A stretch of 58,269 bases of DNA. Source: Nanobdellota archaeon (GTDB taxonomy: Archaea; Nanobdellota; Nanobdellia; Parvarchaeales; Parvarchaeaceae). Both the position numbers and the translations under genes were made by a program. The stretch is taken from positions 1 through 58,269 of the forward strand of contig JAKASS010000005.1 of NCBI GenBank assembly GCA_021818905.1, given 5' to 3'. Positions 8,254 to 27,788 of this stretch are shown piece by piece. The notes under the pieces are model-generated. The model saw only the letters and a program-made list of their open reading frames with translations, did not search any database and was not told the origin of the DNA. Within the stretch, counting starts at the first letter, position 1, and each line of letters starts with the position of its first letter.

Positions 8254-9891
8254 ATGACAAAAAATAATAAAAAAATCTATGGTTATAAGTCTGTCGATAA
8301 AGGGACTTTAGACCTTCTAAGAGATTTAAGCTCCGCTGGCGACAAATTGAATCTACCAAAAGACTTATTATTAGACGCAATAAAAATTTACGAGGGTGGC
8401 ATAAAAGACAAATGGATTACAGGAGATTTCTCACCTAAAAATTTGATGGCGGCCGCTATAGATATTGCTATTATGAAGCGTAGAAAAATAAGCAAGGCCA
8501 GAGAATTGTCTAATGTATTTGGAATTCTGTTATTAGATTTGCTAAAAACCCGCAATAAAGTCGAGATTGCATTAGATATAGAATTACCGCCAACCCTAAC
8601 TTCTGATTATCTTTTTACACTACAAAAGGCGTATTCGAAATTAAATTTATCGGGGGAAACCCGTGACAAAGCCATTTCTTTAGTGCAAGAAGCATATGAA
8701 AATGGAATAGAAAGTGAAAACAAGCTTGATGCTGCGGCTAACTGGATGGACGTAGCTGCGGCTGCTGTATACATAAGCAGTAAAAATGACCACAAAAACA
8801 TCACTTTAAAGCAAGTTGCCGAAGCAACTGGAATATCTGAAGATATTATAATGAAGCGAGTAATCGAATTGTACTCTAAACTTAATCTTTATAATAAAAA
8901 AGACTTTATAGGATTTGATTTATCTAAAGAGGGCTTAGGGCACGCGTTTGAAAAGATAAAAAACGCGGGTGACGAATTAGGATTATCTGAAGAAATACAA
9001 AAAGAGGCAGCAAATATATACCTTAAAGCAATCTGTAATGAACCAATAAGAGCGGCAATGATAGAATCGGTTACAAACAAGCATAAATTAACAGAAAATT
9101 TAGCGGCTGGGGCATTATACACGGCTGCAAGAAGAAATATAGCACTTGTGTTCTTGGAGAAGATATCCAAACTCTTTGATTTAAAAGAAAAAGATGTAGC
9201 GATGGCTCACCATATTTTACGCAAGGGATTAAATATAGATTTACCGCAAATAACTGCATCGGCTTATTTACATTGGTTGACAGACCATCCGAACTTTTCG
9301 GATAAAACGGTTTCGGATGCAAACAAACTACTTAAAATGATTGAAAAGAATAGTTTGATTACTAAAGAAAATCTTATAATAACAACAAGACAGACGCTTA
9401 ACTTATCTGCACTCATAAATAACGATAATACCCGTGTCTTTATGGATATACTCTCCTTAAGACGCAGTGGATTCCCTTTCTATAATGACGACAAAAACGT
9501 ATACAAGCTGATTAAATCGGCAGAAAGGCGTTTGCCGGATTTTGACAATTCTTTCTTTGCCGACATGCTAACTAATTATAAAGGCATTCGCGATAAAACT
9601 TTAGAGAATATACTTTCAGATGCAAGGCGCCTTAAAGAGACAGGAGAATATAATTTGTCGCAGTTCGATCAATCTAATTATCTAGAAGGGTCAAAATATT
9701 ATAATCTTTCTGGCATAAAAACTCAAGAAAAGATATTCTTGGATGCAAATAAGCTACTGAAAATCGTGAAAGACGCTGGTTTTCTAAATGGAGAAAATTC
9801 CCAGCTTTTAGTTGGGTATATTCTTTTTATCGCAGTACTAATAAATCAGCATCCAAAGGCTAGTCTAGGCAATAAGAACGGCATATCTTAG
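8254..9891 (+). CDS. TFIIB/TFB-like multi-cyclin-repeat protein lacking a Zn ribbon
   Basis: Repeated cyclin-box patterns (LNLP..A..IY; AAAAVYIS..ITLKQVAEATGISE; LAAGALYTAAR); no N-terminal CxxC. Confidence 0.75.
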   Translation: MTKNNKKIYGYKSVDKGTLDLLRDLSSAGDKLNLPKDLLLDAIKIYEGGIKDKWITGDFSPKNLMAAAIDIAIMKRRKISKARELSNVFGILLLDLLKTRNKVEIALDIELPPTLTSDYLFTLQKAYSKLNLSGETRDKAISLVQEAYENGIESENKLDAAANWMDVAAAAVYISSKNDHKNITLKQVAEATGISEDIIMKRVIELYSKLNLYNKKDFIGFDLSKEGLGHAFEKIKNAGDELGLSEEIQKEAANIYLKAICNEPIRAAMIESVTNKHKLTENLAAGALYTAARRNIALVFLEKISKLFDLKEKDVAMAHHILRKGLNIDLPQITASAYLHWLTDHPNFSDKTVSDANKLLKMIEKNSLITKENLIITTRQTLNLSALINNDNTRVFMDILSLRRSGFPFYNDDKNVYKLIKSAERRLPDFDNSFFADMLTNYKGIRDKTLENILSDARRLKETGEYNLSQFDQSNYLEGSKYYNLSGIKTQEKIFLDANKLLKIVKDAGFLNGENSQLLVGYILFIAVLINQHPKASLGNKNGIS

Positions 9892-9898
9892 AAGTAAT

Positions 9899-10339
9899 TT
9901 AGCTTGGATTCTTGATAAGCTTATTACGAATAGCATCAAGTTTCTTCCAGCTGGTGCTGGTCTTTCTATACTTTATGTTAGGCTTGTAAAGCTTGTCTAG
10001 ATTTAATAGTATGTTCTCATAGCTTTTGCCAGGGGTGACTCCGATCTGTTCCTTATTGACTACATAGATCGGTTTTCTCTGCGAGAAAGAAAATCCAAAG
10101 TCCATAACACTTCCGCGAGAGCTCTTAGAGTAGAATAAGTGCACCTCATCTGCCCACATTATCGCATCGAGATTCTCGGATATTATGTTATAGCCTACCG
10201 GATCTTTTTGATTTGTATCCCTATGTGGGTAATGCACGTCATATCCAGCGCTCTCGATCGCCCCAATGTACATCATCATTTGGGCTTTCTGCTCTTCAGA
10301 AGCATTAGCAACTGGACATATAAGGAACGCCTTTGGCAT
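9899..10339 (-). CDS. Nucleoside 2-deoxyribosyltransferase-like (NDT/MilB fold) protein
   Basis: FLICPV...HYPHRD...NLDAIMWADEVH...SRGSVMDFG...KPI pattern. Confidence 0.7.
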   Translation of the reverse strand: MPKAFLICPVANASEEQKAQMMMYIGAIESAGYDVHYPHRDTNQKDPVGYNIISENLDAIMWADEVHLFYSKSSRGSVMDFGFSFSQRKPIYVVNKEQIGVTPGKSYENILLNLDKLYKPNIKYRKTSTSWKKLDAIRNKLIKNPS

Positions 10340-10439
10340 CTTACTTAATTAGAATAACCAGTTTTTATAGTTTTCTTAGTTTCTACTTTCCTGGGATCGA
10401 AGCAGTTGCTTTTATTTAGGTTCAACTTTTAAGTATCAT

Positions 10440-11711
10440 ATGAAAGACGGTGACTCCGACGCCTATTACGGAAAACGGGCTATAAAACTTTCCAAAAAAT
10501 ATGGCGGCAAGATAACTCTCGAAGCAAACCTAAAAGTAAAATCTCTATCGGATTTTTCTACGGTCTACACTCCTGGCGTTGCTGCGGTTTCCAATGCAAT
10601 AAAAATGCATAAAGATGCATCTTATGATCTAACCTGGCGCTGGAATACGATCTTTATAGTGACTAACGGAAGCCGCGTACTGGGCTTGGGCGACATAGGA
10701 CCTTTAGCTTCTTTGCCGGTTATGGAAGGAAAGTCACTTCTTTACAAGACGCTCGGGGGTGTTAATGCAGTCCCTATCCCTATAGACAGTACGTCGCCGG
10801 AGGATTTCGTCAAGGTCGTAAAATCAATATCGGTGACATCTGGCGGCATACATCTCGAAGACTTGGCTTCGCCATTTTGCTTTGACGTGCTCGAGAAACT
10901 TCAAAAAGAACTAAAGGTCCCGGTATGGCACGATGACCAGCAGGGAACGGCAGCGGCTACCCTCGCAGGACTGATAAATTCATTCAAGATTGTAGGCAAA
11001 GATCTTAAGGATTCGCGGCTGGTGCTCGTCGGCTCTGGTGCTGCTAATATAGCGCTGTTCAATATGCTTGGCGATTATGGCGTTGACCTTGGAAAGGTTG
11101 TGCTTATAGACAGCAAAGGCGTGCTTAGCAGAAAAAGAGAAGACCTGGAACAAATGAAGACCGAGAACATATGGAAACATGATGTGTTGTTGAGGTCAAA
11201 TGCTTCTGATTTTACGAAAATAGAAGATGCATTTTGTGGAGCTGATGCTGTAATTGCTTTCAGCAGACCTGGCCCGGGGATAATAGGGGCGAACTGGATA
11301 CGTTCGATGGGTACCAAACCAATAGTTTTTGCGAATTCAAACCCGACGCCAGAGATATTTCCAGACGCGGCTAAAAGAGCCGGGGCGTACATAGTAGGGA
11401 CGGGCAGGTCGGATTTTCCGAACCAGATAAACAATAGTCTGATATTCCCTGCGCTCTTCAGAGGCGTGCTTGACTCTAGGGCAAAAAGAATCACTGACAG
11501 GACAGCGATAGTCGCTGCAGAGGCTCTGGCAGAGTTCGCAAGAAAGAAGGGGATAAGTAAAAATTACATCGTGCCTAAAATGACTGAACGGGCGCTTTAT
11601 CCCGCGGTCGCCGCATCTGTCGCAGATTACTGCTGCTCTTCTGGGGATTCTTCGCTAAAAGAAGGCTTCGGATACTTCTATAAGAAAGCTAAAAAAATAT
11701 TGGTTAATTAA
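10440..11711 (+). CDS. NAD(P)-dependent malic enzyme
   Basis: YTPGVA, VLGLGDIGP, PVMEGK, WHDDQQGTA, SNPTPEI, TGRSDFPNQINN. Confidence 0.96.
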   Translation: MKDGDSDAYYGKRAIKLSKKYGGKITLEANLKVKSLSDFSTVYTPGVAAVSNAIKMHKDASYDLTWRWNTIFIVTNGSRVLGLGDIGPLASLPVMEGKSLLYKTLGGVNAVPIPIDSTSPEDFVKVVKSISVTSGGIHLEDLASPFCFDVLEKLQKELKVPVWHDDQQGTAAATLAGLINSFKIVGKDLKDSRLVLVGSGAANIALFNMLGDYGVDLGKVVLIDSKGVLSRKREDLEQMKTENIWKHDVLLRSNASDFTKIEDAFCGADAVIAFSRPGPGIIGANWIRSMGTKPIVFANSNPTPEIFPDAAKRAGAYIVGTGRSDFPNQINNSLIFPALFRGVLDSRAKRITDRTAIVAAEALAEFARKKGISKNYIVPKMTERALYPAVAASVADYCCSSGDSSLKEGFGYFYKKAKKILVN

Positions 11712-13474: not shown

Positions 13475-14671
13475 CTATCTGTATTTATATCCTACATCTT
13501 CGTATGAGAGAAGTTTTACAGCTTGACTGTTTCCAGAGACTCTGCTTCCGATAACGTACTTCACTTCGCTCTGTTCGGAAGATTTTGCTATCTCCTCGGT
13601 TATCGAACCGTCAAGGACCAGCATGAATACGTTTTCTATGTTCAGTATCGCAGCTTCTACTTCTTTGTAAGGTATCTTGCCCATTATCTCGAATTTTTCG
13701 TTTACCAAAAAGGCGCCTCTCGTACCTATAATCTCATTTATGAGGCCAGGTGCTTTTTCTTTCAGTTCCGGTGGAACCTCTATAGGTTGCCTCTGTACCG
13801 GTGCAGCTTTTCGTTCTGGTAACGGTTCCTTGGATCTGCTTGCAGCCGAAGCATCGTACTCTTCAAAAGGCACTTTCACGCGCAACGCCTGGTTTATCTC
13901 TTTCTTTGCGAGTTCTTCTACTTCCGTGCCGCTTGGCGCCTTTGCAATGAAATCAACGTGCCCCATCTGCGAGAAAGCGCTTATTATCATGTCGCCGCCC
14001 CTGTCTCCATCTACAAAGAGAGTTATAGTTTTCTTACGGCTAAGCTCTATTACTGTCTTAGGGATGTTCGTTCCGTTCATTCCTATTACGTTTGTAAAGC
14101 CGTGCTTTAACATGTTCATTACGTCTGCCCTTCCTTCTACGACTATGACTTCCTCAGAATCGTTTACTTCTGGCCCAGCCGGCAGCTTTTCAGGTCCGTA
14201 TTCTACGAACTCTTTCTGTCTGACGTCCTCGTAAAGCTTCTGTAGTAATTCTGTCGTGTCTACTGACGTTACTTTGAGCGCATCGTTAAGCAACTGTTGT
14301 GCTTTCCTCATTATGTATTCACGCTTTGATACCCTTACATCTTCTATTTTATCCACTGTGACCGTGGCCTTGGACGGGCCTATCCTGTCTATGGTCTCTA
14401 TAGCTGCGCCGATAAGGGCGGTTTCTGCTATTCCCAAAGAAGTAGGTATTGTTATTTCCCCCGTGGTCTTGCCGCTGGAAGAAGTGCTTTCTACGTTTAT
14501 CCTTCCTATCTTTCCATTTTTCTGCGCTTCCCTTAGGTCTAATTCTTCACCCAAAAGTCCTTCGGTCTGGCCGAAGACTGCGCCTATCACATCTGGCTTG
14601 TCTATAAGGCTGTCTGCAGTGAACTTTGCACGCAATACATACTTAAACGAAGCCGGTCCTATTTTTGCCAT
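13475..14671 (-). CDS. dnaG: Archaeal DnaG (exosome-associated, TOPRIM domain)
   Basis: DKPDVIGAVFGQTEGLLG, IDRIGP, VVEGRADV, DGDRGG. Confidence 0.97.
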   Translation of the reverse strand: MAKIGPASFKYVLRAKFTADSLIDKPDVIGAVFGQTEGLLGEELDLREAQKNGKIGRINVESTSSSGKTTGEITIPTSLGIAETALIGAAIETIDRIGPSKATVTVDKIEDVRVSKREYIMRKAQQLLNDALKVTSVDTTELLQKLYEDVRQKEFVEYGPEKLPAGPEVNDSEEVIVVEGRADVMNMLKHGFTNVIGMNGTNIPKTVIELSRKKTITLFVDGDRGGDMIISAFSQMGHVDFIAKAPSGTEVEELAKKEINQALRVKVPFEEYDASAASRSKEPLPERKAAPVQRQPIEVPPELKEKAPGLINEIIGTRGAFLVNEKFEIMGKIPYKEVEAAILNIENVFMLVLDGSITEEIAKSSEQSEVKYVIGSRVSGNSQAVKLLSYEDVGYKYR

Positions 14672-19284: not shown

Positions 19285-20046
19285 TTGAGATTCATGTTCT
19301 GCGACAAGCTCATCCCGACCGAAGCTCTGGTAAGGAGGCTTTACGGCAGCTCTCCAGACCATACCACGATAAGCAGGAGGCTTTACCGCCTTGATGTGAA
19401 ATGGACCATCGACAAGAAACGCAGGAAAGGAAGGCTCTTGGCGATAGACGCCACAGGGATATCCATATGCAGGACCGGCAGCTATAGGCATTCAAAGTAC
19501 GGGGGGATGCCTAGATTCTGCAAACTACATGCTTTGATCGACCCCGATACCAAAGAGATCGTGGACTTAAGGGTCACCACAGACCGCTGTCATGACAATA
19601 GGAAGTTCCGTCCCATAGTCAGGGAAGCCGCGAAAAGAGGGGACACCGTCTACGCCGACGGAGCTTATGATTCAAAGGAGAACTTTGACTATCTCTCAAG
19701 GAACGGCATCAGAAGCGGCATAAAGATAAGGAGGAACTTCTCCACTAAGGCTGGGGGGAGCTACGCCAGGCAGAAAGCCGTGATGGAGCAGTTCGGGATA
19801 TCGACTGCGCGTCTCAAGGGAAGGGCCCATTTCCTGCCTATCGAAGGGATCGTCTTCGACAAGATAGGATACTACCAGCAAAAATGGAAAGAAAAGGTCG
19901 GATACGGCAGAAGATGGCTGGTCGAGTCCTTCTTCTCCGCCTTCAAGCGGAGGTTCGGGGAGCACGTATGCTCTCGAAGATGGAAGTCTGTGCAGGACGA
20001 GCCCGAGCTGGAGGCGATGCTTTACAATAGGCTTCTCGAAACGTAA
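19285..20046 (+). pseudogene. IS5-family transposase with a decayed 5' end
   Basis: PDHTTISRR, AIDATG, KLHA, ADGAYDS, RWLVESFFSAFKR; similarity continues upstream (SDELITKISF) then hits a stop. Confidence 0.85.
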
Positions 20047-20131
20047 GCCGATACGAGAAATATGGAAGGTCGCTAGCTGTGGCTATTGTCTTCTAGGCTA
20101 GTTATGCACAGGCGTAGCGCATTCTTATTTT

Positions 20132-20659
20132 ATGACGACAGAGGTCGAGATAAGGGCGTTTATAGACAAGAATAAGTATAACGAGCTTCTAGCTTTCTTT
20201 AAAAAGAACGGTAAATATCTCGGGGTAGATCACCAAGAAACCTACTATCTTGATTCTGAAAGCGACTTGAGAATACAGAAAAATAATTCTTTCTCAAAAA
20301 TCTGGCTTAAGAAGGGTAATATGCATGACGAGGCTAGAGAGGAGATAGAGGTAAAATTCGCCAGAGAAGACTTCCCAAAAATTGAGAAAATATTCCGACT
20401 CCTCGGTTTCGCTGTAAAAATAAAATGGCTTAGATTAAGAAAAACTTTCGAATGGTAGGGAGTTAACGTGATGTTGGACTCGACGAGGGGCTATGGCCAT
20501 ATAATCGAGCTAGAAAAGCTTATTGGGGGCAGAGAAAAGGAAGAAACGATAAGACTACTGAAGGGAAAATTAGAATCACTTGGAATACCGCTGACCAAAA
20601 AGAAGGTGTTCGACCAAAAGTATGCGTATTATCAGGATCACCGGAAAGAATTTTTATAG
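20132..20659 (+). pseudogene. CYTH-domain protein with an in-frame TAG at 20456-20458
   Basis: EVEIR, HQETYY, LRIQK, REEIEV, YGHIIELEK; both ORF halves are in the same frame. Confidence 0.85.
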
Positions 20660-20698
20660 TCCACCATATTTTGGTAAAACCTTATTTATTTTAAGTGA

Positions 20699-20866
20699 TG
20701 TTCGGATTTGTATCTCTTTGCAGTGGCTTTTGCATCTTTAATGCAGTCTTCGAAAAATAAAGAGAAAATAACATTGGAAGACGTCGCAAGAGCTTCAAAG
20801 ACAGATAAAAATGTTTTATTAAATCGTATAAATGAAATGCATATCAAACTTAATCTTAAGCGATAA
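20699..20866 (+). pseudogene. Orphan TFB-like cyclin-repeat C-terminal fragment
   Basis: AVAFASLMQSSKNKEKITLEDVARASKTDKNVLLNRINEMHIKLNLKR resembles AAAAVYISSKNDHKNITLKQVAEATGISEDIIMKRVIELYSKLNL of ORF 8254. Confidence 0.6.
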
Positions 20867-21041
20867 TCGAATATTTAATTCTCATTAGCGTAAAGTTACT
20901 AATTCGATACGCAAGTGTCTTAATCTGTAATAGTCCTTCTAGACTAAGAGAATTGAACATAAAATTATTGTATCTTAGTATTTCTTTAAAAATTGCAACG
21001 TTAAAACTTTTAAATTGTCTTTAGGTTAGTATAGTAGTAAT

Positions 21042-21114
21042 AGCCCCGTAGTCTAGTGGCCAAGGACAACTGGCTCTGAACCAGTGAACATCGGTCCAAA
21101 TCCGATCGGGGCTA
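21042..21114 (+). tRNA. tRNA-Gln(CTG)
   Basis: Acceptor stem AGCCCCG/CGGGGCT; anticodon arm ACTGG-CTCTGAA-CCAGT; T arm ATCGG-TCCAAAT-CCGAT; no encoded CCA. Confidence 0.93.
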
Positions 21115-21454
21115 AATTTTGTTGGGGGATATAGGTAGGAACCAAAAAGTGGAATTAAATTTATGCCCAAATATTATAGAATTTAGAGCAGCTTTTTTTA
21201 TATTCTCTCATCCAATTGAAATTATGAAAAAAGGGTAGGATCGAGTTGGTATTCTTCAGACCCAACCAAATTTAGAGGATTTGTCCCAGAAAAACTGCTT
21301 AAAACTTTAAAATAGGACGGACTAATAAAAATTACAGAAATAGACGATAAAACCATTTCTATCAGATTAACTAAAGATGGGATTCTTTTTGTGCAGTAGA
21401 TGAACTATTAGTAGAATTATAAGTCTCTTTTGTAATATTGTTACTAGTCACTCT

Positions 21455-21939
21455 TTAAGTGTTACTAAACTCAACATATGAATTACTATTCGAACAAGTT
21501 GCACCACTTGCACCCGTTGAAAGTAGAACCGAGTAAGTTCCAGTAGGTAATGACAAGTTTTGTGTAGCGTATAAGCAGTACAGAGGATAGCTTTTACTAT
21601 TATTGGCTGAAAAATCATAAGAATAGCCTACATTATTTGTAAGATTCACAGCGATAGCCATTAATTCTCCGGTGCTCCAAGACATGCTTAGATTACCGCC
21701 CGGCCACTTACAAGACCCGGATACCTGTGAATTTGGTGAGGTAGACTGTAAATTAAGAGTACTACATAAATTAGTTATATTTGTATTAGAACTATTTTTT
21801 GTCGTAGACAGATTAGTTGTCGGTTGGCTACTTAGAACAATTACTATAACAATAACGAGACAAACCCCGATTATAAGAATAAATTTAGGACTTAGGCACT
21901 GTTTAAGGCCGTTCCTTCTATCTTTTCCGTTTCTCCCAT
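21455..21939 (-). pseudogene. Membrane-anchored S/T/N-rich surface protein, apparently frameshifted near the start
   Basis: Frame open upstream of 21685 through the TM segment KFILIIGVCLVIVIVIVL; ATG at 21939 with GGAGG is one base out of frame. Confidence 0.55.
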
Positions 21940-21955
21940 ACTCTTTTTGCCTCCG

Positions 21956-21986
21956 AAAGCGACGACTTTTGACTTGTCGTCGCTTT
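21956..21986. promoter_or_regulatory. 11-bp perfect inverted repeat between divergent genes
   Basis: AAAGCGACGAC-N9-GTCGTCGCTTT. Confidence 0.55.
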
Positions 21987-22002
21987 TCCGTAAACTATTT
22001 AT

Positions 22003-22020
22003 TCTCTCTCTCTCTCTCTC
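22003..22020 (+). repeat. (TC)9 microsatellite two bases before a start codon
   Basis: ATTCTCTCTCTCTCTCTCTCTTATG. Confidence 0.9.
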
Positions 22021-22022
22021 TT

Positions 22023-23573
22023 ATGCTCCACGATCATAAGTCGCAATCAGCATTAGAATATCTCATGACCTATGGCTGGGCCATACTGATCATAGTGATA
22101 GTAGCGGCAGTCCTTGATGCAATGGGCATCTTCAATCCCGCTGCGGCGGCAAACGTCCCATTCACAGTGACAGGCACGTCAGGAACGGTGATAGCCGCAG
22201 GTCAGGGGAATGCGACGCAGATATATCTTACGATATACGATCAAACGGGTTATCCTGTGACAATAGACTATCTATCCTTCGAATCGGGCGGAGCGACCTA
22301 TTCTGCATTCGGCTGTGCCGGCTTCCCGCCTTACCAGCTTGTGGCAGGCCAAAGCACCATATGTGCCATCCGTTCATCCCCGAACGGCAACTTCCGGAGT
22401 CCGCTAGGAGGGCAGGTGTCCATAACATACCTGGAAGACAACGGCGTACCGGGACAGAACTTCATGACGACAAGCTCGATAAGGATGTCATTGACGACCT
22501 CTAAGCTGGACAACAACGGCGAGAACCTCTCTTTTCCTTTAATGACTACGTTCACAGAATCAGGTCTTCCTTCCGGTACATCGTGGAATGTCACGTATGA
22601 CGGAGTGACTAACCACTCTGCCACAAATACAATAACGTTTTTGGCATTGGCAGACCCATTTTCGTACACGATATACAATCAACTAATTTCAAGTACTGCG
22701 GGTTACTGTTATCTTAAAATGTATTCCGTGCCAGTTCTATCTTCAGGCTCGGCTAATGGCGGTTCTTCCATACCGGTCACGTTCACAAATTCTTCCGGGT
22801 GTACGCTCGCATACGTTGCAAATTATGGTGCAAATACCACTTCCGTCATCAATACCTCTACCAATACAGTCATAGGCGGCCCGATAACCGTCGGTTCCCA
22901 TCCGGATGGTGTAGCCATAACCCCCAATGGTAAATTTGCATACGTTACAAATTTTTATGTAAATGCAGTTTCCGTCATCAATACCTCTTCCAATACGGTC
23001 ATAGCCACCATAACCGTAAGTGCTAACCCGAATGGTGTAGCCATAACCCCCAATGGTAAATTTGCATACGTTACGAATCAGAATGCAAATGCAGTTTCCG
23101 TCATCAATACCTCTTCCAATACGGTCATAGCCACCATAACCGTAAGTGCTAACCCGAATGGTGTAGCCATAACCCCCAATGGTAAATTTGCATACGTTAC
23201 GAATCAGAATGCAAATGCAGTTTCCGTCATCAATACCTCTTCCAATACGGTCATAGCCACCATAACCGTCGGTTCCCATCCGTTTGGCGTAGCCATAACC
23301 CCCAATGGTAAATTTGCATACGTTACGAATCAGAATGCAAATGCAGTTTCCGTCATCAATACCTCTTCCAATACGGTCATAGCCACCATAACCGTAGGTG
23401 CTTATCCAGAGGGCATAGCCATAACCCCCAATGGTAAATTCGTATACGTTGTAGATTATAATACAAATACAGTTACTGTCATCAATACTACTTCCAATAT
23501 GGCCATAGGCCCCCTGATAGCCGTAGGTAATAGCCCGATTGACATGTCACTTTCTTCCGTAGATTCAGTTTGA
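22023..23573 (+). CDS. Class III signal peptide (pilin-like) surface protein with an Ig-like domain and YVTN/YncE beta-propeller
   Basis: True start is likely 22023 (MLHDHKSQSALEYLMTYGWAIL); FTESGLPSGTSWNVT domain; AITPNGKFAYVTN repeats. Confidence 0.9.
   Translation: MLHDHKSQSALEYLMTYGWAILIIVIVAAVLDAMGIFNPAAAANVPFTVTGTSGTVIAAGQGNATQIYLTIYDQTGYPVTIDYLSFESGGATYSAFGCAGFPPYQLVAGQSTICAIRSSPNGNFRSPLGGQVSITYLEDNGVPGQNFMTTSSIRMSLTTSKLDNNGENLSFPLMTTFTESGLPSGTSWNVTYDGVTNHSATNTITFLALADPFSYTIYNQLISSTAGYCYLKMYSVPVLSSGSANGGSSIPVTFTNSSGCTLAYVANYGANTTSVINTSTNTVIGGPITVGSHPDGVAITPNGKFAYVTNFYVNAVSVINTSSNTVIATITVSANPNGVAITPNGKFAYVTNQNANAVSVINTSSNTVIATITVSANPNGVAITPNGKFAYVTNQNANAVSVINTSSNTVIATITVGSHPFGVAITPNGKFAYVTNQNANAVSVINTSSNTVIATITVGAYPEGIAITPNGKFVYVVDYNTNTVTVINTTSNMAIGPLIAVGNSPIDMSLSSVDSV
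22841..23530 (+). repeat. Near-identical 126-bp intragenic tandem repeats (YVTN blades)
   Basis: TTCCGTCATCAATACCTC recurs at 22841, 22970, 23096, 23222 and 23348, with a degenerate copy near 23474. Confidence 0.95.
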
Positions 23574-23767
23574 TTACTCGATAAACAGAGTCATGGTAAC
23601 AGTTATAGTAGATCTATAACTTATTAGCTTCATTTTGCATCCTTTATATGAATCTTTGAGTTTTCAAATGGTAAAGGTGGAATATCTCCGTTCTTAGAAA
23701 GGGTTATTTCCAGTTTCTTTGGAACAAATTGTTTCTGTTCTTTTTCTTCTATCTTTAGCATTTTTTG

Positions 23768-23982
23768 TTCTATTTTGGGGGAGTTCTATTTTATTCTAAT
23801 TTACAACTGGTTCCATTCTATTTTAATTCTGTTTAATTCTATTTTGAGCTGTTTTTATAGGCTCTAATTTCTATTTTTACTCTATCTGATTCTATTTTAT
23901 TCTAATTTTTCTTGGATTAGAATCGGTTCCATTCTATTTTGAATCTGTTTTTATTCTGTTTAATTCTATTTTATTCTAATTT
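23768..23982. repeat. Non-coding array of TTCTATTTT motifs
   Basis: Eight copies (23768, 23784, 23816, 23837, 23869, 23890, 23932, 23964); TTCTATTTTATTCTAATTT x3; GGTTCCATTCTATTTT x2. Confidence 0.85.
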
Positions 23983-24003
23983 ATTCTGTTTTTAAGGCTT
24001 TGT

Positions 24004-24363
24004 TTATAAGTCTTCAAGTTTCTTTAGAATATTTTTAGAAAGATGCGCCGGCTTTCGTTCCTTAATCCGCTTTTTTATCTTCCAAAGTGTCGATGTATTT
24101 ATTCCGATTCTTTCAGCGTCTTTAACTTTCATTTTTCTAATCAGCCTTTCCAGCTCTTTTTGGTCTGTATAAACGTTTTGCTCTAATCTGTTGAGACAAA
24201 CTAAGGCCTTTTCTACGTTGTTGGCTTCCTTTCCTATCGACGTTATTTTATCAACTACTATATGCTTTCTATGTAAAATTCCCTCGTGACCATCGAGTTT
24301 ATGCTCTGGGTGTTTTACGTATCTCCAAAGTTCATCACTTAAAGTTTTCCAGTATTCAACTCC
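24004..24363 (-). pseudogene. C-terminal 119 aa of a casposon-type family B DNA polymerase (not in ORF track)
   Basis: GVEYWKTLSDELWRYVKHPEHKLDGHEGILHRKHIVVDKITSIGKEANNVE...DAERIGINTSTLWKIKKRIK; resembles, from recall, the euryarchaeal casposon PolB tail; no start codon, abuts the IS6 TIR. Confidence 0.7.
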
Positions 24364-24365
24364 TT

Positions 24366-25305
24366 GGCACTGTTACCAAATACGGTTGGTGAATCTTAAT
24401 TACACCGGCTGCCATCTTTATTTAAGGTGAAAATGGAAAACCGATGTAATTATTGTAAAAGTAGCAGCGCAGCCTTAAATGGTTTTAGAAAGACGAAAAA
24501 CAGGGGAAACGTACAGCGATACCGTTGTACGTCCTGTGGCAAGACGTTCGTAGAAAACATCGGTTTCAGGTGGAAACACCATGCGAAACGCACCATGATC
24601 GGCAGCATCCACCTGCATCTGATGGGATCGTCGCTTAGGGAAGCCGCGAAGTTCCTTTCCGTGTCCGTTGATTCCGTATTCAGGTGATTCCTGGAATATG
24701 GAAAGATGATCGTAGGATACGTAAAGGACATCAAGCCTTTCAGGACGGAAAGGCTTCACATGGACGAGATGTCCGTAAAGATGCGCGGGAAGTCCTTTTA
24801 CGTATGGGCTTCCATCTGCAGGGAAAGCAGGTTTGCCACGGCTTTCCTCGCTTCCGACAGGACGAAGAAGAACGCCAGACTGCTGATGAAAGAGTCCCCG
24901 CCCGCCATCAACATCACTACGGATGGCGCATTTGGATACGGCTCCGTCATAAGGGAAGCCAAGGGATCGTGGTATTACCACAATCGTTATCATCGCTGCG
25001 CTTCCTTCGAGGACAAGAAGGACAATGATCCCATGGAAAGACGGGACAATCCCTATCGTGCTAATACTCACGAGCTTCGCGGCTTCAAGAAGCTCGCCAC
25101 TGGAGACCTGTTCGTAAGGTTGTGGACGTTCTACTATGACTTCATAAGGCCGCATTCTTCCCTCGGCAGGACCCCTGCTGAAGAAGCGGGACTTGTAAGG
25201 TATTACAAAGGCGATGATTGGTTAGGACGGTGGGAGCGATGGGTCGAGAGAGCTTCGCTCTCTTTTTATTTGGCTTATATATCAACCGTATTTAGTAACA
25301 GTGCC
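24366..25305 (+). mobile_element. IS6-family insertion sequence (940 bp)
   Basis: TIR GGCACTGTTAC(C/T)AAATACGGTTG 22/23 identical; no 8-bp TSD. Confidence 0.9.
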
Positions 25306-25352: not shown

Positions 25353-25619
25353 TTAGTCTTTACCGTATACCTGTTTATGCGAACAGACCTTCAGCAAGAA
25401 TATCTCTCTGTTCTTGAAATCAACTGTATAAGCTATCCGATTGCTGTGACTTATATCCAGCGCATAGAAGCCAAGATTTCCTTTCTTTACACCAAGTTGC
25501 AGAGGATTTTCCACCGCGCCCAGTTCGATGATTTTACTTTTAGTTCTTTCTTGCATTTCCGTGCTCTTATTTTTGAACAATCTCTTGAAAGTCTTGGTTA
25601 TGACAAACGACCAAACCAT
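25353..25619 (-). CDS. RelE/ParE-family toxin
   Basis: TKTFKRLFK..., RIAYTV, VCSHKQVY; 88 aa, downstream of an antitoxin. Confidence 0.8.
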   Translation of the reverse strand: MVWSFVITKTFKRLFKNKSTEMQERTKSKIIELGAVENPLQLGVKKGNLGFYALDISHSNRIAYTVDFKNREIFLLKVCSHKQVYGKD

Positions 25620-25620
25620 A

Positions 25621-25857
25621 TCAGCTTTCTAGGTGTTTAATCGCGCTTTTTGCGTCTGAGAATTTTACAAAATCTCCTTTTTTGATGTCTATAAGGCTGT
25701 TTTTTATCTCTTCTATCTCGTTTAAGTCAAATCCGCCGACACTTTCATCTATGCCTATCAATCTTTTGATTACTTCATTCAAGGCTTCTCTTTTGTGGAT
25801 CTTGAGCTTTTCCAGCTCTTTTCTTACTTCTGAACTTATTTGTATCGTCGTTGCCAT
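25621..25857 (-). CDS. RHH-type antitoxin
   Basis: MATTIQIS.EVRKELEKLK...EVIKRLI with an acidic C-terminal half. Confidence 0.8.
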   Translation of the reverse strand: MATTIQISSEVRKELEKLKIHKREALNEVIKRLIGIDESVGGFDLNEIEEIKNSLIDIKKGDFVKFSDAKSAIKHLES

Positions 25858-26100
25858 AGCTAGTTATAACACGCTATAGTATTAATACTTTATTGTCGTC
25901 TTCCCTTATTTTATGCTTTTGTTAGCTCTTCTTTTATTCCTTATTTTGGAGCATCCCCTTTATAACCCACCACAACTTTATCCGCACAGCTAAAAACGGT
26001 TCAAATATAGTCTAGTTCATGTAGCAAGGGAATATAGATATCTCCAGAAATGGCGCAACTTTATAACCGTCTTTCCTTGCGGTTTTGAGTGGACCGGCCC

Positions 26101-27188: not shown

Positions 27189-27788
27189 TTACTTTCTTCT
27201 TTGCAATAATTTATTGGACTGGTAAAAGCTTTCTACGCTCGATCTCTCCCACCAGCCTTCTAGTTCTGGATTTTCTATGAGTTCAGGCTTGTGGAATGGC
27301 ACCCTGCCCGGAGACAATGTCATACTAAGTGGATGTACACCTACTTTGTCTCGGATTTGTATCGGCTTGTCCCCTTTGAACCAAGTTCCTAATCTTATTA
27401 GCGACCTCCGTATAGCTATATCCTGCAGGTGCGTCCGATCGGTTTCCTGTACTGCGTAGTCCAAGCCGCAATTTACGTTGGAAGGCGAATCATCATATAC
27501 TTCAGACGCATCCGAAATCAATTGCTTTAGCACATTTGGGTTTCTCTTTAAGAATTCAAAATACGCGTCTTCATAAAGTGCATATGCGCCGGGTTCTCCC
27601 ACATAAATGTCCCCAATTTTCCAGACGACTCGCCAGTTTCCCTCGCCGTATTTGTCATCCCGCTCCTTGCGTTTGTCGTTTCTTTTAGAGCCCAAGTATC
27701 CAGTCCTGCCGACGGTTTCCCAGTTGGAAAGATTTTTTTCTACGCCAAAAAGCCTGTGTTCCTCTCTTTTAAGATCTAATTGTTCCAT
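27189..27788 (-). CDS. Conserved-looking hypothetical protein
   Basis: 199 aa, enzyme-like polar motifs (YEDAY, VYDD, HLQDIAIRR, SPGRVPFH, ESFYQSNK). Confidence 0.7.
   Translation of the reverse strand: MEQLDLKREEHRLFGVEKNLSNWETVGRTGYLGSKRNDKRKERDDKYGEGNWRVVWKIGDIYVGEPGAYALYEDAYFEFLKRNPNVLKQLISDASEVYDDSPSNVNCGLDYAVQETDRTHLQDIAIRRSLIRLGTWFKGDKPIQIRDKVGVHPLSMTLSPGRVPFHKPELIENPELEGWWERSSVESFYQSNKLLQRRK

What the first reader, a model, noticed from the sequence alone, without database searches (positions are those of the whole stretch)
21125..24365. Probable casposon relic at tRNA-Gln in a DPANN-type archaeon
Seen: (1) a start-less 119-aa minus-strand frame (24004-24363), missed by the ORF track, running to the IS6 TIR; (2) GGGGATATAGGTAGGAACCAAAAAG beginning 10 bp after the tRNA 3' end; (3) the IS6 has no TSD. 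From recall of known families: the YWK.L...Y..HPE.K.DG..GIL.RKHI.V..I..IGKEAN motif plus terminal HTH matches the C-terminus of Methanosarcina/Aciduliprofundum casposon PolB, casposon TIRs begin GGGGATATA, and these elements target tRNA 3' ends. Inference: a casposon integrated here, and IS6-mediated adjacent deletion removed cas1 and most of polB, leaving one end and its cargo. I am not aware of described DPANN casposons, but cannot verify that. A weak candidate second end (rc GGGGAT-GCT-CCAAAATAAGGAATAAAA) ends at 25958 without a TSD.
Basis: partly seen in the sequence, partly recalled or inferred. Interest (0 to 1): 0.82.

Follow-up and report, generated by a model that had tools for sequence, protein, structure and literature searches.

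The report
Truncated casposon beside a DPANN tRNA-Gln
This is the decayed stump of a casposon (a self-replicating transposon that uses a Cas1 integrase), parked at a tRNA-Gln gene of a tiny DPANN archaeon and cut short at an insertion sequence; the stump itself is ordinary decay, but it shows that casposons live in this little-studied group.

Summary

- **PolB fragment.** Window 24004-24365(-) is the last 120 codons of a family-B DNA polymerase of the casposon type (motif C YCDTDS). It is 85% identical to an 874-aa protein. In 32 of 38 related loci with near-full-length polB, a Cas1 gene lies in the flank held.
- **Casposon end.** GGGGATATAGGTA starts 14 nt after GG|GCTA of tRNA-Gln(CTG). An intact casposon in a same-class genome (G131) has this geometry, with Cas1, HNH, PolB, 29-nt TIRs and a 14-bp TSD at tRNA-Gln. 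The 12-mer GGGATATAGGTA is the invariant TIR tip of eight Methanosarcinaceae casposon ends aligned here.
- **Empty sites.** Two same-genus genomes have the site empty and lack the motif.
- **What is missing.** The own assembly has no cas1, no more polB and no second TIR.
- **The break.** polB stops exactly at a 940-bp IS6 copy without TSD; 4 of 9 copies have one. An IS-linked deletion is likely, but a contig misjoin at the IS is not excluded.
- **Second end.** The proposed end at 25958 is not supported.
- **Genus.** 10 of 33 genomes carry this polB.

My paper searches found no DPANN casposon in print. Verdict: new member of a known kind, moderate interest.

The parts
21042..21114 (+). tRNA-Gln(CTG), intact; the integration target
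   Evidence: ARAGORN 21041-21115; Rfam tRNA 62.4 bits, 21042-21114
21111..21124 (+). 14 nt (GCTA plus 10 nt) between the tRNA body and the TIR. This is the surviving copy of what would be the target-site duplication; it overlaps the last 4 nt of the tRNA.
   Evidence: Sequence. Same geometry and length as the 14-bp TSD that flanks the intact G131 casposon. No second copy next to a TIR in the window or the genome.
21125..21155 (+). tRNA-proximal terminal inverted repeat of the casposon. Its inner limit is uncertain because the partner arm is lost.
   Evidence: Unique in window and genome. The 12-mer 21126-21137 is invariant in 8 Methanosarcinaceae casposon ends and occurs as inverted pairs 8.5-11.5 kb apart in their loci.
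21455..21985 (-). Open frame without a start codon (P0005): N-terminal membrane helix plus a Cys-containing C-terminal domain. Probable casposon cargo, possibly a pseudogene.
   Evidence: Translation. The C-terminal 108 aa are 31% identical (E 6e-11) to the C-terminus of a 796-aa secreted protein inside the intact same-genus G409 casposon. No Pfam hit.
22023..23573 (+). Gene for a 516-aa surface protein (P0006): type-IV-pilin-like signal (KSQSALEYLMTYGWAILIIV) plus YVTN beta-propeller repeats. Possible cargo; its origin is uncertain (GC 0.466 against 0.27-0.36 around it).
   Evidence: Translation. NCBIfam beta_rpt_yvtn 1.5e-61 and Pfam Lactonase 5.2e-21. GC. A gene with a 59%-identical signal region lies next to the tRNA-proximal TIR inside the G425 casposon. 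The family is in all 33 genus genomes, so this is weak evidence.
23747..23992 (.). AT-rich spacer made of about 10-nt TTCTATTTTA-like repeats, just downstream of the polB stop
   Evidence: the repeat finder; GC 0.27 over 23574-24003; function unknown
24004..24365 (-). C-terminal 120 codons (about residues 755-874) of a casposon-type family-B DNA polymerase, including the conserved YWK...IGKEAN block and the terminal HTH; no start codon
   Evidence: 85% identical to P0002; Methanosarcina casposon-locus PolB, E 7e-19; family shown to be PolB
24366..25305 (+). IS6-family insertion sequence, 940 bp, inverted repeats GGCACTGTTACC. It abuts the polB break, has no TSD, and its transposase frame carries an in-frame TGA.
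   Evidence: Pfam DDE_Tnp_IS240 41.1 bits (cut-off 27) and NCBIfam IS6 E 2.3e-11; copies and flanks; TGA against TGG in three other copies

Best explanation
A family-2-type casposon once integrated at the 3' end of tRNA-Gln(CTG) in this DPANN (Nanoarchaeota-type) archaeon. By analogy with studied casposons, its Cas1 casposase joined the TIR ends to a staggered cut 14 nt wide that overlaps the last 4 nt of the tRNA gene, and its own PolB copied the element. What is left is the tRNA-proximal TIR, about 2.9 kb of cargo (two secreted or surface-protein genes and an AT-rich repeat spacer) and the last 120 codons of polB. The rest is gone: about 750 codons of polB, cas1, the HNH and HTH genes, the distal TIR and the second TSD copy. 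The break lies exactly at the end of an IS6 copy that has no target-site duplication. The most likely route is therefore an IS6 insertion into polB followed by an IS-linked deletion, either by intramolecular replicative transposition or by recombination between two IS copies. The stump can no longer move. Shown: the anatomy, the homologies, the empty sites and the absence of the rest from the assembly. Inferred: the integration chemistry (from published casposases) and the IS-linked route of the deletion.
For: - PolB identity: the fragment is 85, 80 and 72% identical to the C-termini of three longer proteins. By eye, the two full-length ones (874 and 873 aa) carry the exonuclease I-III motifs and polymerase motifs A, B and C (YCDTDS); the third (339 aa) holds only the C-terminal part from motif C on. 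A profile of 12 family members hits only family-B polymerases in the PDB (48 hits, best 1.2e-8). 8 of 12 members match Pfam DNA_pol_B. A published 'PolB_CDTDS' cluster includes the A. boonei casposon polymerase (passages of PMC7544198).
- Link to Cas1: 32 of 38 loci with at least 750 aa of PolB hold at least 250 aa of Cas1. Pfam Cas_Cas1 scores 4.4e-61 in G131. G131 and G304 each have a single Cas1 match.
- Intact model element: G131 has 29-nt TIRs (86% complementary), a 14-bp TSD (TAATAAAAAGTAGC), HNH, Cas1 and PolB, and tRNA-Gln 10 nt from the TIR. Its polB 3' end points to the tRNA, as in the window.
- TIR: the 12-mer is identical to Methanosarcinaceae casposon tips.
- Site occupancy in the genus: empty in G424 (syntenic on both sides) and G218. 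Another casposon-type end (GGGGATAATGCTAT) follows the tRNA in G413 and G423, with a PolB fragment beside it in G413.
- Loss of the rest: no Cas1 family match, no further PolB and no second TIR or TSD copy in an assembly rated 100% complete.
- IS: 4 of 9 copies have a TSD, this one does not, and no reciprocal flank is found elsewhere.
- Reads: contigs of 3 public runs bridge the tRNA-TIR junction.
Against: - No cas1, second TIR or TSD pair exists at this locus, so the defining features are inferred from relatives, not seen here.
- The route of deletion is not shown. Relics that keep only the polB C-terminus also occur in G141, G413, G410, G411 and G414. I did not look for an IS at their breaks, so plain deletion is a common fate.
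- The contig passes through a 9-copy repeat in a metagenome-assembled genome. In one search the pieces reach only 27 letters into the IS on the polB side and 30 on the other side, below the tool's 31-letter rule. No piece spans the IS, so the two flanks are not proven to be joined.
- The YVTN gene has a GC of 0.466 against 0.27-0.36 for the rest of the stump, and it belongs to a family present in all 33 genus genomes. It may not have come with the casposon.
- The fragment's nearest fully delimited relative (G409, same genus) has a different TIR type and keeps its P0005-like gene at the other end of the element.
Confidence: 0.8

Rival explanations
1. The casposon decayed by ordinary internal or terminal deletion, as in its relatives. 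The IS6 copy arrived at, or was later left at, the break, so the IS did not cause the loss.
For: Other relics in the genus keep the TIR plus the polB C-terminus. G141 is a 2.9-kb derivative that still has both TIRs and a polB pseudogene with 3 stops. G413 keeps residues 635-871. 44 of 82 related loci hold only polB fragments.
Against: The polB frame is open right up to the first base of the IS, and homology to P0002 stops within one codon of it. The IS lacks the 8-bp TSD that a simple insertion leaves. The count of 44 fragments is biased, because both search patterns lay in the C-terminus.
Confidence: 0.15
2. Assembly artefact: the IS really sits inside an otherwise complete casposon. The assembler joined the polB-side flank to the flank of a different IS copy, and the rest of the element was left unassembled or unbinned.
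For: There are 9 full IS copies of 90-99% identity in a 25-contig assembly, two of them at contig ends. 5 of 9 copies lack a TSD. No run contig spans the IS.
Against: No other polB or cas1 sequence exists anywhere in the assembly, which is rated 100% complete with 0.27% contamination. A missing piece of 7 kb or more would normally form its own contig.
Confidence: 0.1
3. The fragment comes from a non-casposon element that carries a family-B polymerase (virus, plasmid or pipolin-like island) and integrated at the tRNA gene by a tyrosine recombinase.
For: tRNA 3' ends are common targets of integrase-type elements. P0002 has no Pfam hit at all at E <= 1.
Against: 32 of 38 near-full-length relatives sit beside Cas1. 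The element end is a casposon TIR tip at TSD distance from the tRNA, not an att repeat. By eye the family has a KxY-type motif (SKRY) after motif C; the KTRG variant of piPolB is recalled, not tested.
Confidence: 0.02

Closest known systems
Family 2 casposons of Euryarchaeota (A. boonei AciBoo-C1; Methanosarcina, Methanolobus and Methanococcoides elements; Krupovic et al. 2014 and 2016)
   Same: - PolB with a C-terminal HTH.
- In intact relatives, the core genes: Cas1 of about 400 aa with a C-terminal extension, HNH, HTH proteins and PolB.
- A tRNA 3' end as target, overlapped by 4 nt.
- A 14-bp TSD (in G131), the length reported for M. mazei.
- The TIR tip GGGATATAGGTA, identical to the Methanosarcinaceae elements aligned here.
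Sources.
   Different: - The host is a DPANN archaeon with a 0.94-Mb genome.
- The target is tRNA-Gln; the sections and passages I read name tRNA-Pro and tRNA-Leu.
- The window copy is a stump without cas1, HNH, the HTH genes, the second TIR or a TSD pair.
- PolB is only 38-45% identical to the methanogen proteins.
- The cargo consists of secreted or pilin-signal proteins.
IS6/IS26-family insertion sequences and their adjacent deletions
   Same: - DDE_Tnp_IS240 transposase.
- An 8-bp TSD in the copies that have one.
- Inverted repeats that start GGCACTGTT (that IS26 starts the same way is recalled).
- A copy without TSD at the edge of a lost segment, which is the usual scar of intramolecular replicative transposition or of recombination between IS copies.
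   Different: - The event itself was not observed.
- The NCBIfam IS6 score is below its cut-off (43.8 against 125 bits).
- This copy's transposase carries a premature TGA.
Pipolins (piPolB-encoding elements at tRNA genes)
   Same: A self-replicating element with its own family-B polymerase, integrated at a tRNA gene.
   Different: Pipolins use tyrosine recombinases and direct repeats and are bacterial or mitochondrial (abstracts seen; the rest is recalled). This lineage sits beside Cas1 and has TIRs and a TSD.

Membership tests
Casposon (superfamily) | Cas1-family casposase gene in the element | tested here: not met
   No PF01867 match in the whole own assembly at E <= 1. Present beside the homologous polB in 32 of 38 related loci. 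The window holds a relic, not a complete member.
Casposon (superfamily) | Family-B DNA polymerase gene | tested here: met
   Only the last 120 codons survive. They are 85% identical to an 874-aa protein whose family hits only family-B polymerases in the PDB and Pfam DNA_pol_B in 8 of 12 members.
Casposon (superfamily) | Terminal inverted repeats at both ends | tested here: not met
   One end is present (21125 onward). No partner arm in the window or the genome. The tip is identical to known casposon TIR tips.
Casposon (superfamily) | Target-site duplication (median 15 bp; 14 bp in M. mazei) | tested here: inconclusive
   Only one copy can exist in a stump. The TIR starts 14 nt after GG|GCTA, matching the 14-bp TSD of the G131 element. 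No second copy next to a TIR.
Family 2 casposons | PolB with a C-terminal HTH; Cas1 with a C-terminal HTH | tested here: inconclusive
   The fragment ends in an HTH-like stretch, but the Pfam hits are weak (HTH_psq 0.088, HTH_23 0.099). Relatives' Cas1 proteins are 398-409 aa, with about 100 aa beyond the Cas1 domain. BLASTP found no significant PolB-Cas1 C-terminal similarity.
Family 2 casposons | Core of Cas1, PolB, HNH and two HTH proteins | tested here: not met
   None except the PolB stump is in the window. HNH (2.6e-12) and winged-helix proteins are present in the G131 element.
Family 2 casposons | Cas1 falls in the family 2 clade of the Cas1 tree | not tested
   There is no cas1 at the locus and no reference Cas1 set of families 1-4 was at hand. 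The G131 Cas1 is 58-65% identical to the Cas1 of Methanosarcinaceae loci.
Family 2 casposons | Integration at a tRNA 3' end overlapping 4-7 nt, leaving the gene intact | tested here: met
   The tRNA-Gln is intact. The 14-nt interval overlaps its last 4 nt. Same-genus empty sites diverge from the window within or right after this interval.
IS6 family | DDE transposase of the IS6/IS240 type, short inverted repeats, 8-bp TSD | tested here: met
   Pfam DDE_Tnp_IS240 is above its cut-off. There are 9 full copies with conserved inverted repeats, and an 8-bp TSD in 3 of them plus a 7-bp one in 1. NCBIfam IS6 is below its cut-off.

The most novel reading that the evidence does not exclude
Casposons are common and recently mobile in this DPANN genus, and they carry secreted or pilin-signal surface-protein genes between polB or cas1 and the TIR. 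They are present in 10 of 33 genomes. They sit at eight or more different tRNA genes. One site shows back-to-back TIRs at one target, and one element is a deletion derivative with both TIRs. Because they share the exact TIR tip with Methanosarcinaceae casposons, they could move surface-protein genes within DPANN and between DPANN and methanogens.
Probability: 0.35. Interest if true: 0.6.

Novelty: new member of a known kind. Interest (0 to 1): 0.42.

Why it matters
Casposons are the presumed ancestors of the CRISPR adaptation module. In the papers I could search they are described from Thaumarchaeota, Euryarchaeota and a few bacteria. This stump, together with the intact relatives found through it, places them in DPANN archaea, whose genomes are under 1 Mb and mostly lack CRISPR-Cas. 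In such a genome a 10-15 kb selfish element is more than 1% of the DNA. It adds tRNA-Gln, -Arg, -Ser, -Pro and -Lys to the list of targets. It also offers natural sets of filled, empty and decayed sites for studying how casposons are gained and lost. The relic itself has no likely function.

Tried and rejected
- **Family scans of the fragment alone.** Pfam, NCBIfam and PHROGs gave nothing significant. P0002 and P0003 have no Pfam hit at E <= 1, no PHROG hit and no PDB hit as a single sequence. Only a 12-sequence profile reached PolB structures.
- **Second end at 25958.** It is not above chance. The toxin-antitoxin cassette's homology to other genus genomes ends at 25892, and the ICMT gene's homology ends at 26100, so nothing marks 25958 as a boundary.
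- **TSD copy.** The 14-mer with up to 3 mismatches gave 13 window hits against 11.7 expected. The genome-wide hits with up to 2 mismatches are none of them next to a TIR.
- **TIRs of the G304 and G416 elements.** Not found in the DNA held.
- **PolB C-terminal HTH against Cas1 C-terminus.** BLASTP found no significant match.
- **PolB tree.** Only the quick tree finished, with a midpoint root. 5 of 35 rows under 700 aa were dropped (L044, L049, L051, L059, L073). I use it only for the grouping of P0002 and P0003 with the same-genus G409 protein (SH-aLRT 99).
- **GGGATATAGGTA 12-mer next to a YVTN gene in G408 (L151).** It has no tRNA beside it and no partner arm. About 0.2 such hits are expected by chance over all loci held, so I left it aside.
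- **Read laying.** No joint was reported, so no IS-free or casposon-free form was seen in 4 runs of 2 studies. Contigs show presence, not absence, and one run may be the window's own source. No piece spans the IS.
- **Papers.** The 2017 casposon review (PMC5665730) is not held. Supplementary tables of PMC4046053, PMC4779613 and PMC7544198 could not be seen; they list casposons, TIRs and PolB_CDTDS members and may include DPANN entries.
Full report
**What is in the sequence.** tRNA-Gln(CTG) lies at 21042-21114 (ARAGORN 21041-21115; Rfam 62.4 bits). Ten nucleotides after its end, at 21125, begins GGGGATATAGGTAGGAACCAAAAAG. This string is unique in the window and in the 944,665-base assembly.

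- On the minus strand, 24004-24366 reads as 120 residues and a stop, with no usable start codon.
- The frame ends at the left inverted repeat of a 940-bp IS at 24366-25305. The IS has Pfam DDE_Tnp_IS240 at 41.1 bits and NCBIfam IS6 at E 2.3e-11, below that model's cut-off.
- The genome holds 9 full copies of this IS. Three have a perfect 8-bp TSD, one has a 7-bp TSD, and five, including this copy, have none.

**What the fragment is.** On its own it matches no Pfam, NCBIfam or PHROG family. A search for longer proteins found three: 874, 873 and 339 aa, at 85, 80 and 72% identity over 98% of the fragment.

- Read by eye, the two full-length proteins carry the exonuclease motifs (FDTETT, NLPFD, YNFTD) and the polymerase motifs A (DFTSMYPS), B (KVLLNSTSYG) and C (YCDTDS), followed by SKRY. 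The 339-aa one holds only the C-terminal part from motif C on.
- Pfam sees nothing in the 874-aa and 873-aa proteins even at E <= 1.
- A profile of 12 family members hits 48 PDB sequences, all family-B DNA polymerases, best E 1.2e-8.
- 8 of the 12 members match Pfam DNA_pol_B, and 4 match DNA_pol_B_2.
- Kazlauskas et al. 2020 (PMC7544198, passages read) name a divergent 'PolB_CDTDS' cluster after this motif C. They state that its A. boonei member is encoded by a casposon.

**Is this polymerase lineage tied to Cas1?** Yes.

- In a sample of 401 genomes of the phylum, 9 matched P0002, 5 of them strongly. The two with full-length genes, G131 and G304, each have one Cas1 gene about 2 kb upstream on the other strand.
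- A scan of one genome per species returned 74 loci. Most are Methanosarcina, Methanolobus, Methanococcoides and Methanomicrobiales. Others are Nanoarchaeota, Woesearchaeota, Ca. Forterrea and Ca. Iainarchaeum records, plus some bacteria.
- Over 82 loci (79, and 3 from the genus), 38 have at least 750 aa of PolB. Of those, 32 also hold at least 250 aa of Cas1.
- Of the six without Cas1, three have very short flanks, two have Cas1 remnants and one has none.
- The fragment itself aligns to the PolB C-terminus in the Methanosarcina sp. 2.H.T.1A.6 locus at 38% identity over 89 aa, E 7e-19. That strain is a published casposon host (PMC4779613, passages).

**An intact model.** In G131, which the tool places in the same class as the window's genome, an 11.2-kb element is bounded by 29-nt TIRs, 86% complementary, that start GGGATATATACA. 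It is flanked on both sides by TAATAAAAAGTAGC, a 14-bp TSD that overlaps the last 4 nt of tRNA-Gln(TTG).

- It encodes HNH (2.6e-12), Cas1 (4.4e-61), several HTH-like proteins, PolB, a 679-aa protein and a membrane protein.
- The polB 3' end faces the tRNA-proximal TIR, with 3.1 kb between them. The window has the same orientation and a 2.9-kb gap.
- In the window the TIR starts exactly 14 nt after GG|GCTA.
- A 14-bp TSD, and an overlap of 4-7 tRNA nucleotides, are what the literature reports for family 2 elements (PMC4046053 sections 7 and 9; PMC4779613 passages).

**The TIR.** GGGATATAGGTA follows tRNA-Leu genes at TSD distance in Methanosarcina and Methanolobus loci. In at least nine Methanosarcinaceae loci it occurs as inverted pairs 8.5-11.5 kb apart. 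It is invariant in an alignment of the window with eight such ends, and an A-run follows it in most of them.

**Filled and empty sites.** In the genus (33 genomes), 24 others matched the tRNA region. I read four of them.

- G424:C99 is syntenic on both sides. Upstream is a TFIIB-repeat gene. Downstream lies the orthologue of window 27189-27788. Its site is empty...GGGGCTAAATTTTATTTGAGGGCAATAAAT.
- G218 is also empty.
- G413 and G423 carry a different casposon end, GGGGATAATGCTAT, at the same distance.
- G141 carries that end type at tRNA-Gln(TTG).

**What is missing, and how.** The own assembly is rated 100% complete with 0.27% contamination. It has no Cas1 match, no more PolB, no second TIR and no TSD copy beside a TIR.

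- Homology to P0002 stops within one codon of the IS.
- This IS copy lacks the TSD that four other copies show, and no other copy carries a reciprocal flank.
- This is the usual scar of an IS6-linked deletion, but it is not proof.

Two rivals remain. The first is plain deletion, as in relatives; G141 is a 2.9-kb derivative with both TIRs and a polB pseudogene. The second is a contig misjoin across the 9-copy IS.

Public-run contigs bridge the tRNA-TIR junction in three runs. They reach only 27 letters into the IS from the polB side and 30 from the other side, and none spans the IS.

**The cargo.**

- P0005 (21455-21985, minus strand, no start codon) shares a C-terminal domain with a 796-aa secreted protein inside the intact same-genus G409 casposon: 31% identity over 108 aa, E 6e-11. 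That element spans L141 8776-19224.
- P0006 (22023-23573) has a pilin-type signal and YVTN repeats.
- A gene with a 59%-identical signal region is the terminal gene of the 15.5-kb G425 casposon, L143 912-16381.
- Such proteins are in all 33 genus genomes, and the GC of P0006 is 0.466 against 0.27-0.36 around it. 'Cargo' is therefore likely for P0005 and open for P0006.

**Spread in the genus.** 10 of 33 genomes match this PolB. It is full-length in four (G409, G416, G425, G426) and fragmentary in six.

- Casposon-type ends follow tRNA-Arg(GCG), Arg(TCT), Ser(CGA), Pro(TGG), Lys(CTT), Gln(TTG) and Gln(CTG).
- In the own genome a second orphan end follows tRNA-Arg(CCT) on contig C12.
- In the quick PolB tree, P0002 and P0003 group with the G409 protein, SH-aLRT 99.

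**Literature.**

- The search 'casposon' + 'DPANN' found 6 papers. In the passages shown, none describes a DPANN casposon.
- A 2023 casposon review has no occurrence of DPANN, Nanoarchaeota or Woesearchaeota.
- The Forterrea genome paper has no occurrence of Cas1, casposon or polymerase.
- The searches added nothing.
- The 2017 review is not held, and supplements were closed.

**Verdict.** This is a genuine casposon relic, correctly read by the first stage. It is ordinary as a relic and extends the known hosts. It is a new member of a known kind, of moderate interest.

Noticed in passing
own genome, contig C12 13197-13320 (outside the window): A second orphan casposon end in the same genome. 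tRNA-Arg(CCT) is followed after 10 nt by GGGATAATGCTATCTCCCGAAAAGTGTACGC. No partner arm lies in the remaining 5 kb of the contig. By eye, a minus-strand frame at 13527-13904 resembles part of the 796-aa cargo protein of the G409 casposon. 2 of 29 tRNAs in the genome are followed by such an end.
   Followed up: partly
window 24685-24687: The IS6 transposase frame of this copy has an in-frame TGA where copies C7, C21 and C23 have TGG (Trp). The 99%-identical copy at C4:133 shares the TGA and also lacks a TSD.
   Followed up: partly
window 19285-20866: The left side of the tRNA is also rearranged. 20708-20866 is only the last 50 or so codons of a TFIIB-repeat gene that is intact (212 aa) in G424 (68% identity, E 1e-19). 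Before it lie a CYTH gene split into two frames (20132-20659) and a DDE_Tnp_1 transposase (19285-20046).
   Followed up: partly
window 23747-23992: An AT-rich array of about 10-nt TTCTATTTTA/ATTCTGTTTA repeats just downstream of the polB stop. No Rfam match. Function unknown.
   Followed up: no
L141 (G409:C7) 8745-8830: Two casposon TIRs lie back to back and share one target copy (GGCAGTTTTATCTG). This looks like a tandem insertion or the remnant of a second element beside the intact 10.4-kb casposon at tRNA-Arg.
   Followed up: no
L014 (G141:C13) 8592-11491: A 2.9-kb casposon derivative with both TIRs (the right one partly duplicated), a degenerate TSD, a polB pseudogene (residues 579-874, 3 stops) and two membrane-protein genes, but no cas1.
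   Followed up: partly
L012/L028 and L013/L045 (G131, G304): The public titles call these genomes 'uncultured Methanosarcinales archaeon'. The genome tool places them in the same class as the window's DPANN genome. The labels and the placement disagree.
   Followed up: no
window 25353-25857: A ParE-like toxin (7.5e-5, below the Pfam cut-off) and a DUF7557/VapB-like antitoxin lie right after the IS. A 67-69% identical cassette sits in other contexts in G416 and G425.
   Followed up: partly
window 22004-22022: A (CT)n run just upstream of the P0006 start codon. Read laying reports that run contigs break at 21992-22029.
   Followed up: no
L151 (G408:C19) 9520-9565: GGGATATAGGTA lies 14 nt after ...CATTATCCC (a reversed tip of the other TIR type), beside a 1014-aa YVTN gene. 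No tRNA or partner arm was found. It could be chance or two decayed ends.
   Followed up: partly
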